32,000 bases of DNA from Candidatus Saccharimonadota bacterium (GCF_965196625.1 NZ_OZ239769.1:1020001-1052000); one strand, 5' to 3'. Positions 2 through 17,874 are shown, counted from the stretch's first letter. The notes: a model not told the origin generated them from the sequence alone. A program made the numbers and translations.

Positions 2-3000
2 TGGTATGGGTGCGCCTTGATCTACACATGGTATAGGTTCTTGCTTAGGGCGCTCCCATGGACCTACTATAAAATCTTCAGAAATAGCCATATCGCCTAT
101 GCTGCCATGACGCAATTTAACAGCAGCATCGAATTTATCCACCACAGATATTTTATGATTTTTTGAAGAAACCATAACCGACCATGGATAACCGGCAAAC
201 AAATGACTATCATAAGTTGTTACCTTATCCAGCTTTAAATCTGGAGCGTTACCAGAATACTTCAATATAGAAAAATTTCCTATGCCTTCTATATAATAAC
301 GGTTATTAATGAAGTCTATAATCTTAGAAGTAGGTATATTTCCACCTAACTGTACATCCACTGATGGGTTTAATACCCAAGGAGAAAAAAAGTTGTGTAA
401 ATCCTGGTATAACAAATTTAAGAATAATCCTTTTTCATACCCGGGTTTAAACTTAACGGTAACGTTAACTTTAACATCTTCATAAATAGGATTTATGACC
501 TCGCACTTTATAAACGGTGTACTAACACTTTGAATATAGGTTTTAATTTCAGTTAAAAGCTGTCTGCTCACAAAAGGGATACCCGAACTAGGATCTGCTT
601 TAGCCATGACCACAATGGTTATATGACCAGGTTGTGCCATATTATTTGTGCTTTTTGAGGTATGGTTGATACACTTTACTTTGAAAACTTCTGGAAATTT
701 TTCAAGAACGATTCGTTCATAATCCCACACTGATATGGCTCTATTTTTATGCCTCAAACGTTCACTAACCCGCCTATAGAAGGCTTGATGATTTTCAAAC
801 TGCCTTCCACCAAAAGTGGGAAAAGGTTGTAGGACCCATTCAATACCCTCTATAGGGTTCTGAAGTTCTTGAATTGCTTTTTCAGGTAATACCGGAGCAG
901 AAAATACACCATTTCTATCCATCACCCTGGATACAGCAACGGCTTGTGTATAGACTCCAACTATAGTGGCCAATGCACCTTTTTTATCCATAAACTGTGC
1001 CTTAATCCAAGTTAACCCTGGCGTCATACGGGTATTGTTTCTATTTACCTCACTGGGTAAACTAGATAAATCAAAAATGATAATGCCAGATTGAGATAAT
1101 CCATTGGTTCCATCTACAACAATCGCTTCCTCGAAGGGCAGCCAAATATTGTCAGACAAATAAAACCACTTGGGTTGCTGGGTTTCTTGATCCGAACTGT
1201 TTTCACCAATAGCTATATGCATAGAAAGATGGGTGCTATTTAGATCTTCTATGCCAAAAGCGATAAATGATTCTTTCTGTTCTATCAATGGCAATAATGT
1301 AGGCGGGGCAGTTAGCTTGCTTGGAAAGGTCTTTAAATAACCAAAAGAAGAAATATGAAAAAAGCTGTTTAAATATTTTTCTTCCTCTTCTCCAGGAGGA
1401 GAGGTGAGTACCATAGATTCCTCCGCCTCGTAATCAACAGTAATCGATTTGATGCGGGGGGTATAGGGTTCATTCAAGACCGTTATGGTTTCTCCTTTCT
1501 TTTTCTGGGCATTTTTAACGAGTATACTGCTCATCAGGCTGGGATAGATGGCATGACCAAAAGCTTGCTCTGGTGCACATAATTGTAATTTTAAAAAACC
1601 AGCTACTGTTTTGGGGCCATAGACGTTAACCTCTAATGGATGGTTTGTTTTAGTGACCCGTAATGCAGCTACGTCAATGTCGTTAATGGTTCTCAGGTAA
1701 TCTAACTGTTCACTACCTTTATTATTTTTTATAACCTGAAAAAGAGGCACAACTTGTCTATTTTGGACATAAGATGGATTCCAGTGCTGATGATTTAAGT
1801 AAGAAATGTTTACCTTAAAATCATCGTTGCTTACCTTAATAGGATAGGCATCATAATAAGACTTAAATCCTCCTTCTATGGTAGGAATGCTATCCCATTT
1901 AATATTTATTTTTAAATCCGTTAGATTTTTAGAGAAGATTTCTCCACTACCTATATAAAAGCTACTATCGAGTTTGGCTAATGGCCCAAAAAGCTCAAAA
2001 ATTTGACTATTATCAATAATACCCAATTGATTCTGAAGGACCAATCCACGATATCCCTGCACACTAACTTTTAAATCTATGGTTTCAAGCACCAAACCAT
2101 TTAAGAGATACAAACCAGTAAGTGATGCTTTATCACGTATGCTAACAGATACCGTCGGGGTACCAGGATTCACTATTTCACCCTGGTATTCAGGAGGTAA
2201 CATTTCTACTGGAGGTGCTTCTGCATTTAAAGATATGGTCATGTGCAGACAACGCGTTGCATCCACAAATTCCAATGCTACAGACTCTTCTGGTATAGTC
2301 AGCCATCCATCTTTAGTAGTAATTTGTACCCGTGCAAGGGTAGAAAGCATACCGGACAATTGTTTTAAAAATGCTGCAGTAGGGATCTTTTTATTTGGAT
2401 TACGATTGACTAATATTTGAAAGGATTCAAAAGTAAGTTTCCATTTTATATGGATGGTGCGTATGCCTTCAGCAAGGTGAAATAAGGGTGAGCCAACCAA
2501 TACAGCCAATTGTTCGTTCGATTGCGTTTTGGCCATTTCATTATTTTCTGGCATAGGAAACAATTGAAAAGGAAACATTTGTAAGAGCTTGCTATCATAG
2601 GTAGTAGTAGACAACTCAACTGTTTTATAGCCTTCTTTATCAACCTTTTTAGTAATCAACAGGGTGTTGATCTGAGCAACCTTAGCTTTATTGACTGTTA
2701 TATTTCTTTTGGTTTCAAACAAAATATCTGCACCATTAACTGGATTTTTTGCAACCAAAAGGCTCCCCTCTGGCACAAAAGCGAAGGAATGATTGGGGCT
2801 AAGCAAAAAATGCACATAAGACTGATCTGGAATGGAAGGATTATTATTAAATTTTAGTACATGTCTGTAGTAGTGCTCTAGCGTTCTTTGTGGAATGTAA
2901 TTAAGATGGGCATCTGCATACTGTAACAGCTGTAAAAAAGCGATCAAAAGCGCCACATGAGGCGCTTTATTTTGAGCATAAAGGGTATCAAAATAATCAC

Positions 3001-3712
3001 TAGCAGAGAGTTCCTTTAATTTATAAATCGTATTAAAAACAGCATCAAAAAAATCATCAAAAAAATCAATAATTTGCTCATCATTAAGCTCTATACCATT
3101 TACTTCATCATAAACCAGATCAACTCTTAATTGCCATAAGGAACCATTATGACACTTCTCATAAAGAAAAACAGAAAAGTTTATAAAAGATTGAATAGAA
3201 CTGACCCTACGATGCTGTTGGAGCATTTTGTATATTTTACTAATATGGGTATTGATTTCTTCATGTATAATGGCATCTAACTTGGCTCGAACCACATCCT
3301 CATTAGATAGGTTTTTATACCAATAATCTAATAGTATGATCAATTCTTGGGCCACGACCAAAATATTATTCATCAAGTTGCTATCTGCAATCCCTGTAGA
3401 GCTTCTGCGTAGGGTTAAAAAATCTTTATGAATGTTTTTTTTTAAACCATCAATATTGGTATGTAGAATGAGGGAACGTATAACAGTATCATCTTGCTCT
3501 AAAAACTTTCGCCAGACATTTTGATCTATGCGTTGATTGTTGTTATCATAATAGGCCAATAAGTCGGTGTATAAATAAAGGAAGCGGAGGTGATCGCTAA
3601 ATTGTCTATCACTAATCAATAAATTGTTTTCTACCAATTCAGGTAGCAATCGTTCAGCGTGGGAGGTGCCTCTTCCAGCAAATAAAATATTAAGTTTTTT
3701 TTCAATATTCAT
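2..3712 (-). CDS. Baseplate J / T4 gp6-like wedge protein of a contractile injection system (Afp11/Cis11-like); C-terminus lies beyond the left edge of the window
   Basis: Translated by hand, line by line. ATG at 3712-3710 is preceded by an in-frame TAG (plus-strand cta at 3722-3724). There is no tta/cta/tca in this frame (codon low ends = 2 mod 3) down to position 2, giving 1,237 codons. It is absent from the ORF track because it has no stop in the window. N-terminus: MNIEKKLNILFAGRGTSHAERLLPELVENN. Residues ~249-295: KAPHVALLIAFLQLLQYADAHLNYIPQRTLEHYYRHVLKF. Residues ~965-1017: PTFGGRQFENHQAFYRRVSERLRHKNRAISVWDYERIVLEKFPEVFKVKCINH. The last fits the GG..E...R...R.RA[IV][ST]..DYE signature I recall for Baseplate_J (P2 gpJ / T4 gp6) proteins, including eCIS Afp11/Pvc11 homologues. 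Confidence 0.7.
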   Translation of the reverse strand, partial: MNIEKKLNILFAGRGTSHAERLLPELVENNLLISDRQFSDHLRFLYLYTDLLAYYDNNNQRIDQNVWRKFLEQDDTVIRSLILHTNIDGLKKNIHKDFLTLRRSSTGIADSNLMNNILVVAQELIILLDYWYKNLSNEDVVRAKLDAIIHEEINTHISKIYKMLQQHRRVSSIQSFINFSVFLYEKCHNGSLWQLRVDLVYDEVNGIELNDEQIIDFFDDFFDAVFNTIYKLKELSASDYFDTLYAQNKAPHVALLIAFLQLLQYADAHLNYIPQRTLEHYYRHVLKFNNNPSIPDQSYVHFLLSPNHSFAFVPEGSLLVAKNPVNGADILFETKRNITVNKAKVAQINTLLITKKVDKEGYKTVELSTTTYDSKLLQMFPFQLFPMPENNEMAKTQSNEQLAVLVGSPLFHLAEGIRTIHIKWKLTFESFQILVNRNPNKKIPTAAFLKQLSGMLSTLARVQITTKDGWLTIPEESVALEFVDATRCLHMTISLNAEAPPVEMLPPEYQGEIVNPGTPTVSVSIRDKASLTGLYLLNGLVLETIDLKVSVQGYRGLVLQNQLGIIDNSQIFELFGPLAKLDSSFYIGSGEIFSKNLTDLKINIKWDSIPTIEGGFKSYYDAYPIKVSNDDFKVNISYLNHQHWNPSYVQNRQVVPLFQVIKNNKGSEQLDYLRTINDIDVAALRVTKTNHPLEVNVYGPKTVAGFLKLQLCAPEQAFGHAIYPSLMSSILVKNAQKKKGETITVLNEPYTPRIKSITVDYEAEESMVLTSPPGEEEEKYLNSFFHISSFGYLKTFPSKLTAPPTLLPLIEQKESFIAFGIEDLNSTHLSMHIAIGENSSDQETQQPKWFYLSDNIWLPFEEAIVVDGTNGLSQSGIIIFDLSSLPSEVNRNNTRMTPGLTWIKAQFMDKKGALATIVGVYTQAVAVSRVMDRNGVFSAPVLPEKAIQELQNPIEGIEWVLQPFPTFGGRQFENHQAFYRRVSERLRHKNRAISVWDYERIVLEKFPEVFKVKCINHTSKSTNNMAQPGHITIVVMAKADPSSGIPFVSRQLLTEIKTYIQSVSTPFIKCEVINPIYEDVKVNVTVKFKPGYEKGLFLNLLYQDLHNFFSPWVLNPSVDVQLGGNIPTSKIIDFINNRYYIEGIGNFSILKYSGNAPDLKLDKVTTYDSHLFAGYPWSVMVSSKNHKISVVDKFDAAVKLRHGSIGDMAISEDFIVGPWERPKQEPIPCVDQGAPIP

Positions 3713-3845
3713 ACATTTAAACTATGATCTTTTTCCAAAAATTAAGATATTGAGCAAGAGCGCGCGCCCAAATAGCGCATCGCCATGCTTTGACATCAAT
3801 CTAACCTAAAAACCACTTATAAAAAAGTAATTAAGCTTAAAATTT

Positions 3846-4469
3846 ATGCGCTTCTTATCCTATTTGCTGAGTATGGTTGCCTGTATAGCGACAAGTTTTA
3901 AATGGAATGATGCGGTTGCATCTTGTTACAAGGGGAATGTGATCTTCCAAACTTTGCAGGCTACAGGATCGGATGCTACAAAGGAAACAGAAGCGCATAC
4001 AGTGGCCGCAGATTTGCAGGATACAAACCCAGATACTCCAAACGAACCAGATGCGCCTTCTGATGCACTAGATGAGATACTTAAAAAAGATACCCATTCA
4101 GAAGGAGCCATTCAAAATATATTAGGTGGTTTGGCCGTTTGCTACAATTTTTTAGCCAATCTTCTTTTATACCCTATTTTTTCCTTTTTACTATTGTTGC
4201 TGTCATTGGGTGCCATCTTATTGGTTGGGTTTTGGATAAAGAAAATAAAAGATGAAAAATCGATTTCCACAACTTGGATTTTATTTACTTGTCTCTATCT
4301 GCTTTTTTACTTGGATCTATTTTTAGTAGTCTACCAGAAAAGAGAGGTGCTTTTTTTATTTCTAGAACTAGAAAAGGATCTGTTTTTAACGGTAGCGGCA
4401 GCATCTATTGGTTATATAGTAGGCAAGTTCTTTTCTAGCAAAATTTTTGAAGAAAAAAAATTGCCTTAG
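3846..4469 (+). CDS. Hypothetical membrane protein: signal-like N-terminus, acidic low-complexity segment, 3-4 C-terminal TM helices
   Basis: Track ORF of 207 aa. MRFLSYLLSMVACIATS is a hydrophobic leader. TNPDTPNEPDAPSDALDE is acidic and Pro-rich. Long hydrophobic stretches follow (LLLYPIFSFLLLLLSLGAILLVGFWI, WILFTCLYLLFYLDLFLVVY). No recognisable family. Transcribed divergently from the CIS baseplate gene. Confidence 0.5.
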   Translation: MRFLSYLLSMVACIATSFKWNDAVASCYKGNVIFQTLQATGSDATKETEAHTVAADLQDTNPDTPNEPDAPSDALDEILKKDTHSEGAIQNILGGLAVCYNFLANLLLYPIFSFLLLLLSLGAILLVGFWIKKIKDEKSISTTWILFTCLYLLFYLDLFLVVYQKREVLFLFLELEKDLFLTVAAASIGYIVGKFFSSKIFEEKKLP

Positions 4470-14949: not shown

Positions 14950-15002
14950 AGCCGAACCGATTTTTTGAGTGGCCGTACTTTCAAGCTATTATATTGTATC
15001 TT

Positions 15003-15156
15003 TATAATAGACCTCTTGCATAAGCTATTTATGATCAGCAATTTTTAGAAGAAACGCAGTCGAGAACCGCAGAATACTAAATATATTTGAGGAGCGTAGA
15101 CAAGTTTCGACAACAAAATGACCATTAGAAATAGGTTATGCAAGAGGTCTAATAGC
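15003..15156. repeat. Family-A long palindromic element, copy 2, downstream of gyrB
   Basis: The left arm starts at tagacctcttgcataagctattt (15008-15030). Its inverted partner is aaataggttatgcaagaggtcta (15129-15151), with 16/16 identity in the tagacctcttgcataa stretch. The core agaagaaacgcagtcgagaaccgcagaatactaaatatatttgagga is homologous to the 7706-7752 core. Confidence 0.7.
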
Positions 15157-15249
15157 TTTTTTAACTTAAAATGTATACATTGAGCTTGTATCTGTTTAGG
15201 CAGCCGTTCATTTTTTGAACTTTTAAACACTTTAAAGTAAAGTAAAATT

Positions 15250-15447
15250 ATGTGCAGAAACATCTATTACTTAGTATTAGGCGTAGTATTGGGAACTATA
15301 TTGGGTTTTTTGGTCTGCGATGATACGAAGAAAAAAATCACTAAAGCGATCCAAAATAAAGCGAAGCGGTTGTCTGGTTGTGTGCGATCATCTTCTGAAA
15401 AAGCTGAAGAAGTAATGGATGCGGTTAAAAACGCCGTTAAGGGATAA
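15250..15447 (+). CDS. Small membrane-anchored protein, YtxH-like (tentative)
   Basis: 65 aa. One TM segment with a Gly zipper (YYLVLGVVLGTILGFLV) followed by a charged helical tail. A strong hairpin terminator lies 33 nt downstream. Confidence 0.45.
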   Translation: MCRNIYYLVLGVVLGTILGFLVCDDTKKKITKAIQNKAKRLSGCVRSSSEKAEEVMDAVKNAVKG

Positions 15448-15479
15448 GCTTAGCTGGTTGAGTAGCATTAGCATACATT

Positions 15480-15516
15480 GGCTAAAAAAGCTGTTTGCTT
15501 TTTTAGCCGGTTTTAC
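15480..15516 (+). terminator. Intrinsic terminator
   Basis: Perfect 12-bp stem ggctaaaaaagc / gcttttttagcc with a 5-nt loop (15480-15508), followed by ggttttac. Confidence 0.55.
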
Positions 15517-15548
15517 AGCTTATTTTGTTTGTTTAATCCCTGTAATAT

Positions 15549-15740
15549 ATGTCTAAAAAATTATGGTTGGGTTGGGGCGCCCTGTTAAGTAGCCTTTTTA
15601 TATGGTTTTTTATCTCTAATAAAGACCATATAAAAGTTAAAAAAAAGCTCTATGGCGCTCTGCAGCGGGCTTCTTTATCAATTATCACCAAACGTTTATT
15701 AAAGCCTTGGGTAAAAAAGATTATTCCCTTGCTGTTTTAA
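15549..15740 (+). CDS. Possible small membrane protein
   Basis: 63-aa track ORF. One hydrophobic helix (LWLGWGALLSSLFIWFFI) and a basic tail. No homology recognised. Confidence 0.3.
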   Translation: MSKKLWLGWGALLSSLFIWFFISNKDHIKVKKKLYGALQRASLSIITKRLLKPWVKKIIPLLF

Positions 15741-15751
15741 GTAGTATGCTC

Positions 15752-16174
15752 CGCCGCTAATGGCTGCTCAATAAGCCGTTCGTATGACGTGCTCTAATGG
15801 CCGCTGATAAAAATTTGGCACACAATAAAATACTGTAACGAGCTGCTTTGCATCGGGAAAGTTATAAACGCAACCTGCTGCGCGGGCTTCAGACGACGCT
15901 GGTTAAGTGGGCTAAAAACTTGTCTCTTTTGTTGCGTATTGTGTAAAAGACGTTTTACGGAGGTTCCTATGCTCCCTCGCTTGCGGCCCTCGATAAATGA
16001 ATTTGGCACACAGTAAAAATAATGAAACGAACTCTTTTTCAACGGGAAAATCAGACCTTGCCCGCTACGCGGGCTTCAAACAAAACTGATTTTCTGATCC
16101 GCTGAAAAAGAGTTTGTTAAAAGGCTACTATTTTACTGAAAGCGCCAAATTCCTTTATCGGCGGCCATTAGCAC
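15752..16174. repeat. Family-B composite palindromic repeat: two tandem units bounded by ~30-bp terminal inverted repeats, plus a partial extra terminus
   Basis: Left TIR gctctaatggccgctgataaaaatttggc (15791-15819) matches the reverse complement of gccaaattcctttatcggcggccattagc (16144-16172). Both units start aatttggcacaca[a/g]taaaa (15812, 15999) and share cgcgggcttca (15881, 16068). Unit 2 is a ~150-nt hairpin: 16001-16055 pairs with 16084-16150. An extra partial terminus gctaatggctgctcaataa is at 15756-15774. Confidence 0.75.
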
Positions 16175-16356
16175 CTTAAGTTGGCGCAATGGGAACAACC
16201 GCCCATTAAAATGATGGTTTATCTGATAATCAATAAAATATATTCCTTACGTTAACACCATTGAAGCTGAATGCAATTAATTATGATAAAGCGTTTGGCA
16301 CTTTCAGTAAAACGGTAATCGTTGAGCGACGAATAGATTAAAAAAGCAATAAAGCA

Positions 16357-16977
16357 ATGCTCTACTCCAATAAATTTCATTTCCGGTTAAAAACCAGTAG
16401 AGGATTGGTTATGCTCCTAATAACTGCGATGTTGGGTCTACTAGGTTTTTGGGTGAATGGTTATTTTAAGCAAGGCAACCTATCCAAAGGGAATCACCTA
16501 CCAGCGCAGCACTATCAACCCCTTAAAAGTGGGTTCCCTTATCAATTTGAGTATTCGATACATGCGCATCTATTGCCCGCTACAAGTAGGCATACAATGG
16601 ACTACTGGGTTAACCTCTATTATCCTGATTTCGATGCCACGATTTACCTCTCCTATCAATCCGTTACAGATAACCAAGCCCTCCTAAACGATTGGTGTAA
16701 AAACGCCAGCGCACTAGCCTTCCAGCACCAAGTAAAGGCTTCCTCTATAGAGGAAAGCATTATTCAAACCCCAAAAGGCCATCAGGCACATGTTATAGAA
16801 CTCTTTGGTGAAGTGGCTACACCTTTTCAATTTTATACTACAGATGGCAAAAAACACTTTTTACGCGCCGCCCTTTACTTTAAAACCGCATCGCAAAATG
16901 ATGCTTTAGCACCAGTAATCGCCTATATCAAAAAAGATATGATACATATGCTCAATACGCTAGAGTGGAAAGCATAA
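16357..16977 (+). CDS. GldD-like gliding-motility/T9SS-associated protein (tentative)
   Basis: 206 aa. N-terminal TM or signal segment LVMLLITAMLGLLGFWV. WVNLYYPDFDATIYLSYQSV ... FQFYTTDGKKHFLRAALYFKTASQNDALAPVIAYIKKDMIHMLNTLEWK matches my recollection of the GldD family pattern. The true start may be the internal ATG at 16411. Confidence 0.5.
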   Translation: MLYSNKFHFRLKTSRGLVMLLITAMLGLLGFWVNGYFKQGNLSKGNHLPAQHYQPLKSGFPYQFEYSIHAHLLPATSRHTMDYWVNLYYPDFDATIYLSYQSVTDNQALLNDWCKNASALAFQHQVKASSIEESIIQTPKGHQAHVIELFGEVATPFQFYTTDGKKHFLRAALYFKTASQNDALAPVIAYIKKDMIHMLNTLEWKA

Positions 16978-17009: not shown

Positions 17010-17225
17010 TTAAACTGATCGCTCATTATCTTTAAGAGCAGTTAGCTCATTTTCAATATATTTTTCTAGTGCTTTGGTTTTTTCTATCTCTTCTGATATT
17101 TTTGCTATAGCCTGAGTTATTATTGGCCTAATTTCTCCTATATCTCTCTCTAACCCTTCTATTGCTATTTTTACTTTTTCTTTTTCATTTTTTTGTATAA
17201 TCCAGTACTTTTTCGCCCTTTTTAT
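17010..17225 (-). other. Start-less open frame that continues the coiled-coil gene in another frame
   Basis: Hand translation of the frame with codon low ends = 0 mod 3. It is open from just below the TAA at 17226-17228 to the TAA at 17010-17012 (71 codons). It contains no ATG, GTG or TTG. It encodes ...NEKEKVKIAIEGLERDIGEIRPIITQAIAKISEEIEKTKALEKYIENELTALKDNERSV. Confidence 0.45.
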
Positions 17226-17874
17226 TTACCTCTGTTACAAATTCTAATACATCTTTTCCTTGACTTACCATTTGAGCTTTCTTAACTGCCTCAGGCTTCA
17301 TATTTATCTGGCCTATAGCAAATGTAGATGCTTGTACAGCTTTTTGAGCAGTTTCTACTGCTTTGACTGCGACTGGCCTAAGGTCTTCGCGCACTTTTTT
17401 TACTATTGCTAGCTTCTCATTGAACTTTTCCAAGAATTGCTTGTCACAGACTATACTATTTTTTACATCTTGGACAATTGACATCATATCATTTACCATT
17501 TTTTCTTTAACAGATATAACGTCATCTGATGCGTCAGCCCTGTCAGCTATATCTATTTCTTCGACAATTGTTTGTACATCTCGACTTGCTTGTTGAGCTA
17601 TTCTATATTTTTCTTCTGATTTACAAGATACAAATTGTACATGCTTACGTAGTTCATGTAAAACGCTCATGCCCTTTTGGAGTTTATCCAATTCTGAAAT
17701 TACCACTTTCAACCTTTGGGAGACTATTTTGTCTGATTCATTTACTGAAAATTCTGCTTCATCTGCTAGCTTCCGTACTGTTCTTATCGCTTCGCTATTT
17801 CCTATTCTTGAAACGCCTACTGGTTTAACTACTTTACTACTATCGCTACTATTGGGCATAGGGCCACTGATCAT
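17185..17874 (-). CDS. Coiled-coil protein of unknown function, no signal peptide; apparently truncated at an A7 run
   Basis: 229-aa track ORF rich in E/K/Q/V heptad-like sequence (VISELDKLQKGMSVLHELRK, EKFNEKLAIVKKVREDL). The TGA stop at 17185-17187 follows directly after AAAAAAA (plus-strand T7 at 17188-17194). Confidence 0.55.
   Translation of the reverse strand: MISGPMPNSSDSSKVVKPVGVSRIGNSEAIRTVRKLADEAEFSVNESDKIVSQRLKVVISELDKLQKGMSVLHELRKHVQFVSCKSEEKYRIAQQASRDVQTIVEEIDIADRADASDDVISVKEKMVNDMMSIVQDVKNSIVCDKQFLEKFNEKLAIVKKVREDLRPVAVKAVETAQKAVQASTFAIGQINMKPEAVKKAQMVSQGKDVLEFVTEVNKKGEKVLDYTKK

What the first reader, a model, noticed from the sequence alone, without database searches (positions are those of the whole stretch)
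2..3712. Unlisted 1,237-codon ORF encodes a contractile-injection-system baseplate (gp6/J, Afp11-like) protein at the window edge
The supplied track shows only two short ORFs in the first 3.7 kb. Hand translation of the minus strand gives one uninterrupted frame from ATG 3712 to position 2.

It carries the Baseplate_J-type signature (FGGRQFENHQAFYRRVSERLRHKNRAISVWDYERIVLEKFPEV). It also carries an N-proximal ALLIAFLQLLQYADAHLN..R.LEHYY block that I associate with Afp11/Pvc11/Cis11 proteins of phage-tail-like particles.

The surrounding genes are pure housekeeping with no other phage genes. That fits a domesticated eCIS / T6SS-iv-type apparatus, as described for Amoebophilus, rather than a prophage.

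The gene is the first of a leftward transcription unit. Partners such as an Afp12/gp7-like protein, fibres, sheath, tube or ATPase would lie off-window. The protein is long for the family, so it may carry extra domains.
Basis: partly seen in the sequence, partly recalled or inferred. Interest (0 to 1): 0.8.

Follow-up and report, generated by a model that had tools for sequence, protein, structure and literature searches.

The report
Known Cardinium injection-system baseplate gene
The long open frame is real and encodes the Afp11/Cis11-type baseplate and "spike cage" protein of the phage-tail-like secretion machine of the insect symbiont Cardinium, but this gene is already annotated and its orthologues were described in 2012, so the finding is correct but ordinary.

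Summary
The minus strand from 3712 to 2 is one open frame of 1,237 codons. It was "unlisted" only because it runs off the window edge. It is 100% identical to the NCBI protein [quoted passage not shown] (1,257 aa); the window lacks the last 20 residues.

It is a long-form Cis11/Afp11 baseplate wedge protein. It matches Anabaena Cis11 (7b5h, 2e-84) and AlgoCIS Alg11 (7aeb, 5e-81) over nearly its whole length. The N-terminal domain, spike-cage domain and Baseplate_J core are each confirmed separately, so the extra length is explained by known domains.

It is the orthologue of CAHE_0037/Aasi_0557, published components of the Afp-like/T6SS-iv system of Amoebophilaceae. That system is known to be split over five genome regions.

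In nine orthologous loci only one partner follows, a 246-aa Cis13/Afp13-type fibre protein, and then housekeeping genes. dN/dS of 0.12–0.21 shows the gene is not decaying.

One side observation may be new. A small three-helix membrane protein (3846–4469, +) is divergently linked to cis11 in every Amoebophilaceae-type locus examined. It is a candidate inner-membrane anchor, and this is untested.

The parts
2..3712 (-). cis11/afp11-like gene, codons 1-1237 of 1257 (orthologue of CAHE_0037 / Aasi_0557): baseplate wedge and spike-cage subunit
   Evidence: Open frame. 100% identical to NCBI 'baseplate J/gp47 family protein [Cardinium endosymbiont of Nabis limbatus]'. PDB phmmer: 7b5h All3317 2e-84, 7aeb Alg11 5e-81, 9rce 1e-65, Pvc11 2e-31, Afp11 1e-21. 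dN/dS 0.12-0.21.
3218..3712 (-). N-terminal domain (residues ~1-165) shared with long-form Cis11 proteins
   Evidence: A profile of 11 homologues matches All3317 residues 9-164 (1.4e-24), Alg11 4-108 (1e-10) and 9rce 2-130 (4e-8). The single sequence alone gave no hit.
   Evidence: Aligned with high posterior probability to the equivalent blocks of All3317, Alg11 and 9rce.
1298..2470 (-). putative spike-cage domain (residues ~415-805; boundaries approximate, transferred from Alg11 domain IV 278-643)
   Evidence: Segment 400-830 searched alone: 9rce 7e-24, All3317 546-714 2e-8, Alg11 323-491 3e-6. Cage domain defined in Xu et al. 2022 and Weiss et al. 2022.
386..889 (-). Baseplate_J (gp6/J-like) core, residues 942-1109
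   Evidence: Pfam PF04865 3.5e-10, 40 bits against a cut-off of 21.1. PHROG baseplate wedge families phrog_6 and phrog_219.
2..385 (-). C-terminal extension (residues 1110-1237, continues 20 residues off-window); by analogy the docking site for the fibre-like partner
   Evidence: Marginal matches to Alg11 951-1042 (0.003) and All3317 1126-1165 (0.009). In Anabaena the Cis11 C-terminal extension contacts the Cis13 trimer. The docking role here is inference.
3713..3845 (.). 133-bp divergent intergenic region with sequence blocks conserved across Cardinium and Amoebophilaceae MAGs
   Evidence: Alignment A4. The promoter scan found no more sites than in shuffled sequence, so no promoter is assigned.
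3846..4469 (+). divergently transcribed 207-aa membrane protein (signal peptide, acidic disordered linker, three hydrophobic helices, invariant C-terminal FEEKxLP tail); syntenically linked to cis11; candidate accessory or anchor protein (hypothesis)
   Evidence: Conserved adjacency in window, L001, L002, L003, L005, L006, L010, L012, L013, L014, L018 and L019 while outer flanks differ. Family restricted to 32 representatives among 1.84e9 proteins. dN/dS 0.10-0.26. Topology. Low-confidence all-helical model.

Best explanation
The ORF is the cis11 (afp11-like) gene of the Cardinium endosymbiont of Nabis limbatus. Its product is the long-form gp6/J-type baseplate wedge subunit of the Afp-like contractile injection system of Amoebophilaceae, called T6SS subtype iv in Amoebophilus.

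By homology to the solved Anabaena and Algoriphagus machines, six copies pair with the Cis12 subunit to form the iris-like ring around the VgrG/PAAR spike. The large inserted domain (residues ~415-805) from the six copies closes into a cage around the spike. The C-terminal extension holds trimers of the small fibre-like protein encoded immediately downstream (Cis13/Afp13 position).

In this symbiont family the ancestral single operon has been broken up. cis11 and the fibre gene survive as a two-gene island among housekeeping genes, and the sheath, tube, spike, gp25, Cis12 and ATPase genes lie elsewhere in the genome.

Shown here: the ORF, the homology of each domain, orthology and synteny, purifying selection, and the intact ancestral-type operons in free-living relatives. 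Inferred: stoichiometry, cage formation and fibre docking in Cardinium itself, and the presence of the other components in this particular genome.
For: The open frame is identical to an annotated protein. Pfam Baseplate_J scores above threshold. Homology to solved Cis11s covers nearly the full length: 7b5h 2e-84 over residues 15-1149, 7aeb 5e-81. Segment-wise searches confirm the N-terminal domain, the cage and the C-terminal extension (marginal).

Orthologues at 59-90% identity occur in all Cardinium/Amoebophilaceae loci, always with the same downstream 242-246-aa partner. Penz et al. 2012 Table S5 lists CAHE_0037 as Afp11-like with Baseplate_J and CAHE_0036 as Afp13-like, as one of five regions. 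Aasi_0557 and Aasi_0556 are labelled T6SS-iv genes and are co-regulated. CAHE_0037 is among the highly expressed Cardinium genes.

In the distant relatives L015 and L020 the homologue sits in a complete operon after gp25. In L020 it is followed by the partner and then a Cis12-like gene, the same cis11-cis13-cis12 order as in Anabaena.

The partner models as a fibre: pLDDT 81, with Foldseek top hits to Bdellovibrio fibres, phage tailspikes and T4 gp9, and a fibre repeat matching Bd2133 at 1e-7. dN/dS is 0.12-0.21 for cis11 and 0.07-0.14 for the partner.
Against: The rest of the Nabis limbatus Cardinium genome could not be read, so the presence of sheath, tube, spike and ATPase genes in this genome is inferred from other Cardinium genomes. 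The partner gene of this genome itself was not seen either (one search failed); its presence is inferred from nine orthologous loci.

The NCBIfam equivalog TIGR02243 is not reached (32 bits against 155.8). That model describes a different, shorter subfamily.

The partner's match to the Cis13 N-terminus is not significant by sequence (E 0.49). Its Cis13 assignment rests on gene position and fibre fold.

No assembly or structure has been determined for any Cardinium particle.
Confidence: 0.93

Rival explanations
1. A lone, decaying remnant of a prophage or eCIS cluster with no current function. The frame would be open only because decay has not yet hit it.
For: No other contractile-system gene lies within the 32-kb window. 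Only one lies within 10 kb downstream in orthologous loci. Cardinium genomes are reduced and rich in mobile elements: a transposase and a group II intron reverse transcriptase sit next to the locus in L001.
Against: The ~1,257-codon frame is intact in every lineage examined, from Cardinium to Amoebophilus. dN/dS is 0.12-0.21. The orthologue is highly expressed in cEper1. The Amoebophilus orthologue is co-regulated with the other T6SS-iv genes. The system is published as conserved in all Amoebophilaceae genomes.
Confidence: 0.02
2. Part of a released, extracellular particle (eCIS, as in AFP, PVC or AlgoCIS) rather than a cell-anchored T6SS-iv. On this reading the downstream 'adhesin' is a true target-binding tail fibre, and the neighbouring small three-helix membrane protein acts as a holin-like release factor.
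For: The closest solved homologues include true eCISs: AlgoCIS 7aeb and the Salmonella salamae eCIS 9rce. The partner has a fibre fold and NCBI names it 'adhesin'. The membrane protein has three hydrophobic helices and a short charged C-terminal tail, which resembles class I holins (the resemblance comes from general knowledge and was not tested).
Against: In Amoebophilus, which carries the orthologous module, the system is described as membrane-anchored arrays acting from inside the cell. Cardinium shows intracellular fibril and tube arrays. The partner is 68% identical between amoeba and insect symbionts and has dN/dS of 0.07-0.14, which is unlike host-range-determining receptor-binding fibres. 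The membrane protein has a signal peptide and a ~70-residue N-terminal extension that are atypical for holins. Intact clusters of free-living relatives have no homologue of it nearby.
Confidence: 0.05

Closest known systems
CAHE_0037 of Cardinium hertigii cEper1 and Aasi_0557 of Candidatus Amoebophilus asiaticus (Afp11-like baseplate proteins of the Afp-like / T6SS-iv system; Penz et al. 2012, Böck et al. 2017)
   Same: Orthologous gene. Length is the same (~1,256-1,265 aa). The downstream Afp13-like partner is the same. It is isolated from the other system genes in the same way. Identity is 79% to C. hertigii strains and 41% to Amoebophilus.
   Different: Only the host strain differs (symbiont of the damsel bug Nabis limbatus), along with ordinary sequence divergence. 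The outer flanking genes are rearranged.
Cis11 (All3317) of the Anabaena thylakoid-anchored CIS, PDB 7b5h
   Same: Best solved homologue (2e-84, residues 15-1149 aligned to 16-1165) with nearly equal length. It shares the N-terminal domain, cage domain, Baseplate_J core and C-terminal extension. The gene is followed by a small fibre-like gene.
   Different: Identity is low. Anabaena Cis13 is 154 aa with a C-terminal transmembrane helix that anchors the machine. The Cardinium partner is 246 aa, β-rich and has no transmembrane helix. The Anabaena genes lie in one cluster, and the crown protein Cis19 has no identified counterpart here.
Alg11 of the Algoriphagus eCIS (AlgoCIS), PDB 7aeb
   Same: Six-domain long Afp11 homologue whose domain IV forms the spike cage. 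The match is 5e-81, and the cage segment matches within domain IV.
   Different: AlgoCIS is a released extracellular particle encoded by one cluster. Alg11 is ~200 residues shorter, mostly at the N-terminus.
Afp11 (6rao) and Pvc11 (6j0n), the short-form eCIS baseplate proteins
   Same: Same Baseplate_J/gp6-like wedge core (1e-21 and 2e-31 over residues ~845-1148).
   Different: About half the length (607 and 728 aa). They lack the cage and the other extra domains.

Membership tests
Pfam PF04865 Baseplate_J (gp6/gpJ-like wedge proteins) | Domain score above the curated gathering threshold | tested here: met
   40 bits against a cut-off of 21.1, E 3.5e-10, residues 942-1109. PHROG baseplate wedge families also hit.
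Long-form Cis11/Afp11 (Alg11 / All3317 type, with spike cage) | Homology to solved long Cis11 proteins over nearly the full length | tested here: met
   7b5h 2e-84 over residues 15-1149. 7aeb 5e-81, with its significant aligned stretches covering residues ~249-1200. 9rce 1e-65.
Long-form Cis11/Afp11 (Alg11 / All3317 type, with spike cage) | Presence of the inserted cage domain (Alg11 domain IV, residues 278-643) | tested here: met
   Segment 400-830 alone matches Alg11 323-491 (3e-6), All3317 546-714 (2e-8) and 9rce 623-898 (7e-24). This is sequence homology only; the fold was not modelled.
Long-form Cis11/Afp11 (Alg11 / All3317 type, with spike cage) | Conserved N-terminal domain | tested here: met
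   Profile match to All3317 9-164 at 1.4e-24 and Alg11 4-108 at 1e-10.
Long-form Cis11/Afp11 (Alg11 / All3317 type, with spike cage) | Encoded within a CIS operon between gp25 and Cis12 / fibre genes | tested here: not met
   In Cardinium/Amoebophilaceae the gene is flanked by housekeeping genes, with only the fibre-like partner retained. The feature is met in the distant homologues L015 and L020. The fragmentation is a published trait of this family, so this does not argue against homology.
Long-form Cis11/Afp11 (Alg11 / All3317 type, with spike cage) | Assembles as six Cis11-Cis12 heterodimers around the spike | not testable with these tools
   Requires purification or cryo-EM. Inferred from 7b5h and 7aeb.
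Afp-like / T6SS-iv system of Amoebophilaceae | Orthology and synteny with Aasi_0557 / CAHE_0037 and their Afp13-like neighbour | tested here: met
   79-90% identity to Cardinium orthologues and 41% to Amoebophilus sp. 36-38, with the same partner (68% identical). Table S5 of Penz 2012.
Afp-like / T6SS-iv system of Amoebophilaceae | The remaining ~14-17 components (sheath, tube, VgrG, PAAR, gp25, Cis12, ATPase and others) present in the same genome | not tested
Published for other Cardinium genomes.
Afp-like / T6SS-iv system of Amoebophilaceae | Apparatus anchored to the inner membrane and firing from inside the cell | not testable with these tools
   Known from cryo-ET of Amoebophilus, as cited. 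Only thin-section EM fibrils are reported for Cardinium.
NCBIfam TIGR02243 (putative baseplate assembly protein, equivalog) | Score above the curated cut-off | tested here: not met
   32 bits against 155.8, matching the Baseplate_J part only. Not a member of that equivalog.
Functional prophage | Capsid, portal, terminase or integrase genes nearby | tested here: not met
   None in the 32-kb window or in the 10-kb flanks of orthologous loci.

The most novel reading that the evidence does not exclude
The conserved unit is a three-gene module, not a two-gene one. The small membrane protein at 3846-4469 has a signal peptide, a disordered acidic linker, three helices and an invariant, probably cytoplasmic FEEKxLP tail. 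It is absent from the published Cardinium table of AFP genes, and no searchable paper mentions it. It could be the missing inner-membrane anchor of the Amoebophilaceae T6SS-iv.

On this reading it would receive either the Cis11 cage or the six trimers of the fibre-like partner. [quoted passage not shown]

This would be a third solution to membrane anchoring in this CIS lineage. The other two are the transmembrane helix fused to Cis13 in Anabaena and the trans-envelope complex in Aureispira. It would also parallel the proposed CisA-Cis11 contact in Streptomyces.
Probability: 0.3. Interest if true: 0.55.

Novelty: already known. Interest (0 to 1): 0.15.

Why it matters
The finding as stated adds nothing new. 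The gene is annotated, and its orthologues were described in 2012, shown to be highly expressed, and placed in the T6SS-iv. Its "extra" length is explained by the published cage architecture of long Cis11 proteins.

Its value is as a positive control for the first-stage reader, which identified a remote phage-tail-like baseplate protein and the right biological context from raw sequence alone.

The by-product is modestly useful. The cis11 island carries a strictly linked membrane-protein gene restricted to Amoebophilaceae-type symbiont genomes. This gives a concrete, testable candidate for how this T6SS subtype is fixed to the inner membrane without a TssJLM-like complex. The structural papers leave that question open.

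Tried and rejected
(1) Retrieving the true off-window sequence failed. The downstream content is therefore inferred from nine orthologous loci.

(2) Böck et al. 2017 (PMC6485382) is not held. I could not check whether the membrane gene is among their 18 structural genes. Aasi_0558 is absent from the Amoebophilus expression tables, and a search for the T6SSiv labels was uninformative.

(3) The AlphaFold model of the membrane protein was too poor (pLDDT 60, pTM 0.32) for a meaningful fold search, so none was run.

(5) A single-sequence search of the N-terminal 250 residues found nothing. A family profile resolved it.

(6) The promoter/terminator scan of the divergent intergenic region found no more sites than in shuffled sequence, so no promoter is claimed.

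(7) The partner's sequence match to the Cis13 N-terminus is not significant (E 0.49). The Cis13 assignment therefore rests on gene order and fold only.

(8) The prophage and decaying-relic readings were considered and rejected (see rivals).

(9) The membrane family's most remote members (L016, L017) show no adjacent cis11 on their very short contigs. Linkage is demonstrated only in Amoebophilaceae-type (Cardinium/Amoebophilus-like) loci.
Full report
**Observation.** Translating window 2-3712 on the minus strand gives 1,237 codons with no stop, from the ATG at 3712 to the window edge. The ORF list shows only a 113-aa ORF in this stretch, because the tool does not list ORFs that run off an end of the source. 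"Unlisted" is therefore an artefact of the listing. The translation is 100% identical over its full length to a 1,257-aa NCBI protein named [quoted passage not shown], on a 1.16-Mb contig. The window misses only the last 20 residues. The neighbouring ORF at 3846-4469 is likewise 100% identical to a hypothetical protein of the same organism. So the window comes from this Cardinium genome, and the gene is already annotated.

**What the protein is.** Pfam finds Baseplate_J at residues 942-1109 (40 bits, cut-off 21.1). PHROGs finds baseplate wedge families. The NCBIfam equivalog TIGR02243 is not reached. Against solved structures, the best hit covers nearly the whole protein:
- Anabaena Cis11/All3317 (7b5h): 2e-84, residues 15-1149 aligned to 16-1165.
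- AlgoCIS Alg11 (7aeb): 5e-81.
- The Salmonella salamae eCIS protein (9rce): 1e-65.
- Pvc11 (2e-31) and Afp11 (1e-21): these match only the C-terminal third.

Searching segments separately gives the following:
- The N-terminal domain, as a family profile, matches All3317 9-164 (1.4e-24) and Alg11 4-108 (1e-10). The single sequence alone found nothing.
- Residues 400-830 match 9rce (7e-24), All3317 546-714 (2e-8) and Alg11 323-491 (3e-6). The Alg11 match lies inside its domain IV (278-643), the "spike cage" domain.
- Residues 1110-1237 match Alg11 951-1042 only marginally (0.003).

Weiss et al. describe exactly three extra domains in Anabaena Cis11 relative to Afp11 and Pvc11: the cage, a Cis12-contacting domain, and a C-terminal extension that holds the Cis13 trimer. 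The protein is therefore long only compared with Afp11 and Pvc11. It is a typical long-form Cis11, and I found no part of it that lacks a known counterpart, except possibly the variable helical stretch at ~165-250.

**Context.** The rest of the window is housekeeping: truB, a birA-like ligase, radA, an OMP barrel, tsaB, DUF3822, smr, gyrB, gldD, mfd, gpsA, an acyltransferase, ybeY, rnr, priA and yebC, plus one tRNA-Glu. I could not read the true off-window sequence.

Nine orthologous loci from Cardinium and Amoebophilaceae genomes were recovered, at 59-86% identity. Those I read downstream, and further loci reached through other proteins, show the same arrangement. The ~1,256-1,270-aa gene is followed by a 242-246-aa ORF that overlaps its stop or starts within a few bases of it, and then by unrelated genes (rpmE, holB and rnr in L001). 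No sheath, tube, spike, gp25, Cis12 or ATPase gene lies within 10 kb.

This matches the literature:
- Penz et al. 2012 reported 16 AFP-like genes in five genome regions of C. hertigii cEper1. One region is CAHE_0037 (Afp11-like, Baseplate_J; orthologue of Aasi_0557) plus CAHE_0036 (orthologue of Aasi_0556; Afp13-like "virus fibre protein").
- CAHE_0037 is among the highly expressed Cardinium genes.
- Aasi_0556 and Aasi_0557 are labelled T6SS-iv genes and rise and fall with the rest of the system.
- The system is described as common to all Amoebophilaceae genomes, with conserved sub-clusters.

**Origin of the island.** In two more distant, free-living-type relatives, the homologue sits in an intact operon.
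- L015: Pvc16_N, sheath, two tubes, DUF5908, CIS_tube, VgrG, PAAR, gp25, Cis11, a 989-aa Cis12-like protein, a 1,335-aa protein, tape measure, AAA ATPase.
- Mangrovivirga cuniculi L020: sheath, tube, DUF5908, CIS_tube, VgrG, PAAR, gp25, Cis11 (1,239 aa), partner (247 aa), a 64-aa ORF, a 935-aa Cis12-like protein, tape measure.

The L020 order is the cis11-cis13-cis12 order of Anabaena (all3317-all3316-all3315). The Cardinium pair is thus a fragment broken out of an ancestral single operon.

**The partner.**
- It is very conserved: 71-88% identity within the family and 68% between Cardinium and Amoebophilus, with dN/dS of 0.07-0.14.
- It is widespread in Bacteroidota, where NCBI calls it "adhesin".
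- It has no transmembrane helix.
- It has a fibre-type N-terminus. The match to the Cis13 N-terminus is not significant (E 0.49).
- It has a GNVGIGTTNP..KLTVNG repeat that matches the Bdellovibrio fibre Bd2133 at 1e-7.
- Its AlphaFold model (pLDDT 81) finds only trimeric fibres, tailspikes and T4 gp9 in the PDB. Foldseek probabilities are ~1. TM-scores are low, as expected for a monomer model of an intertwined trimer.

I therefore call it a Cis13/Afp13-position short fibre protein. Its high conservation between symbionts of amoebae and of insects argues for a structural role inside the bacterium rather than host-receptor binding (inference).

**Not a relic.** cis11 has dN/dS of 0.12-0.21 across six lineages, and its frame is intact in every lineage examined.

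**Side observation.** The divergently transcribed 207-aa ORF at 3846-4469 lies 115-135 bp from cis11 in all Cardinium lineages and in the Amoebophilaceae MAGs examined. In Amoebophilus sp. 36-38 it lies ~215 bp away (30% identity, E 1e-21, same C-terminal FEEKxLP). L018 also has the divergent arrangement. In the reduced-genome MAG L019, one gene is inserted between the two. The genes beyond this module differ from lineage to lineage.
- The family has only 32 representatives among 1.84 billion proteins.
- No homologue was found within ±10 kb of the intact operons of L015 and L020.
- It is under purifying selection (dN/dS 0.10-0.26).
- It has a signal peptide, an acidic disordered linker and three hydrophobic helices. 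The loop after the first helix is positively charged, which would place the invariant tail in the cytoplasm. The model is low-confidence and all-helical.
- CAHE_0038, which I take to be this gene from its locus-tag adjacency, is transcribed at about a tenth of the CAHE_0037 level. It is not in the published table of AFP genes, and no searchable paper mentions it.

[quoted passage not shown] No proteins are assigned to those densities. Anabaena anchors through a transmembrane helix on Cis13, and Streptomyces CisA is predicted to bind Cis11. A reasonable but untested hypothesis is that this membrane protein is the inner-membrane receptor for the cage or the fibre trimers.

Points against: there is no direct evidence; its expression is lower than that of cis11; the two most remote family members show no adjacent cis11 on very short contigs; and a holin-like or unrelated function cannot be excluded.

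**Verdict.** The family assignment and the "Amoebophilus-like domesticated CIS" reading are right. The predicted off-window gene content is mostly wrong. The gene itself is already known and annotated, so the finding is of low interest. The linked membrane gene is a modest, testable lead.

Noticed in passing
window 3846-4469 (+), with homologues in L001 9304-9867, L005 9245-9868, L006 4769-5338, L010 10001-10603, L014 9158-9784, L019 3961-4608: A small three-helix membrane protein with an invariant FEEKxLP C-terminus is always divergently linked to cis11 in Amoebophilaceae-type loci. Its family is tiny (32 representatives in 1.84e9 proteins), and it is not in the published Cardinium table of AFP genes. 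It is a candidate inner-membrane anchor.
   Followed up: yes
window 16357-16977 (+): A GldD gliding/T9SS lipoprotein gene (PF25593, 9.6e-53). A 2019 comparison reported GldD only in strain cCpun and A. asiaticus among the Amoebophilaceae genomes known then, so this Cardinium strain retains a T9SS/gliding remnant.
   Followed up: partly
window 30157-30846 (+): A 229-aa ORF hits Pfam DUF1609 (31.9 bits against a cut-off of 25). From memory, that family is described from microsporidian (Encephalitozoon) proteins. This could be a eukaryote-like or horizontally acquired protein, perhaps an effector candidate. It has no solved homologue.
   Followed up: partly
window 17185-17874 (-): A weak, sub-threshold match to a PD-(D/E)XK transposase family (PF12784, 17.4 bits against 27.4). 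Probably a degraded mobile-element gene between gldD and mfd.
   Followed up: no
window 14950-16350: About 1.4 kb after gyrB holds only short ORFs (82 aa or less) and no Rfam or tRNA hit. It may be a decayed gene or a non-coding spacer.
   Followed up: partly
L001 7468-8845 (+) and 21875-22525 (-): In the Oedothorax Cardinium, the locus is flanked by a group II intron reverse transcriptase/maturase split into two overlapping ORFs (apparently frameshifted) and by a Mutator-family transposase fragment. Such mobile elements may have driven the break-up of the CIS operon and the rearranged flanks. For example, rnr lies next to the module in L001 but 21 kb away in the window.
   Followed up: no
L019 (CP136537.1, labelled Roseivirga sp., 1.45-Mb contig): A genome labelled Roseivirga carries the Amoebophilaceae-type isolated module (membrane gene, cis11, partner at 67% identity) on a small 1.45-Mb replicon. 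It may be a reduced-genome symbiont that is misclassified or is a new lineage.
   Followed up: no
window 3713-3845 and alignment A4: The divergent intergenic region has two sequence blocks conserved from Cardinium to the distant Amoebophilaceae MAGs, for example AATATCTTAATTTTTGGAAAAAGATCATAGTT just upstream of the cis11 start. These are possibly shared regulatory elements. The sigma-70 consensus scan was uninformative.
   Followed up: partly
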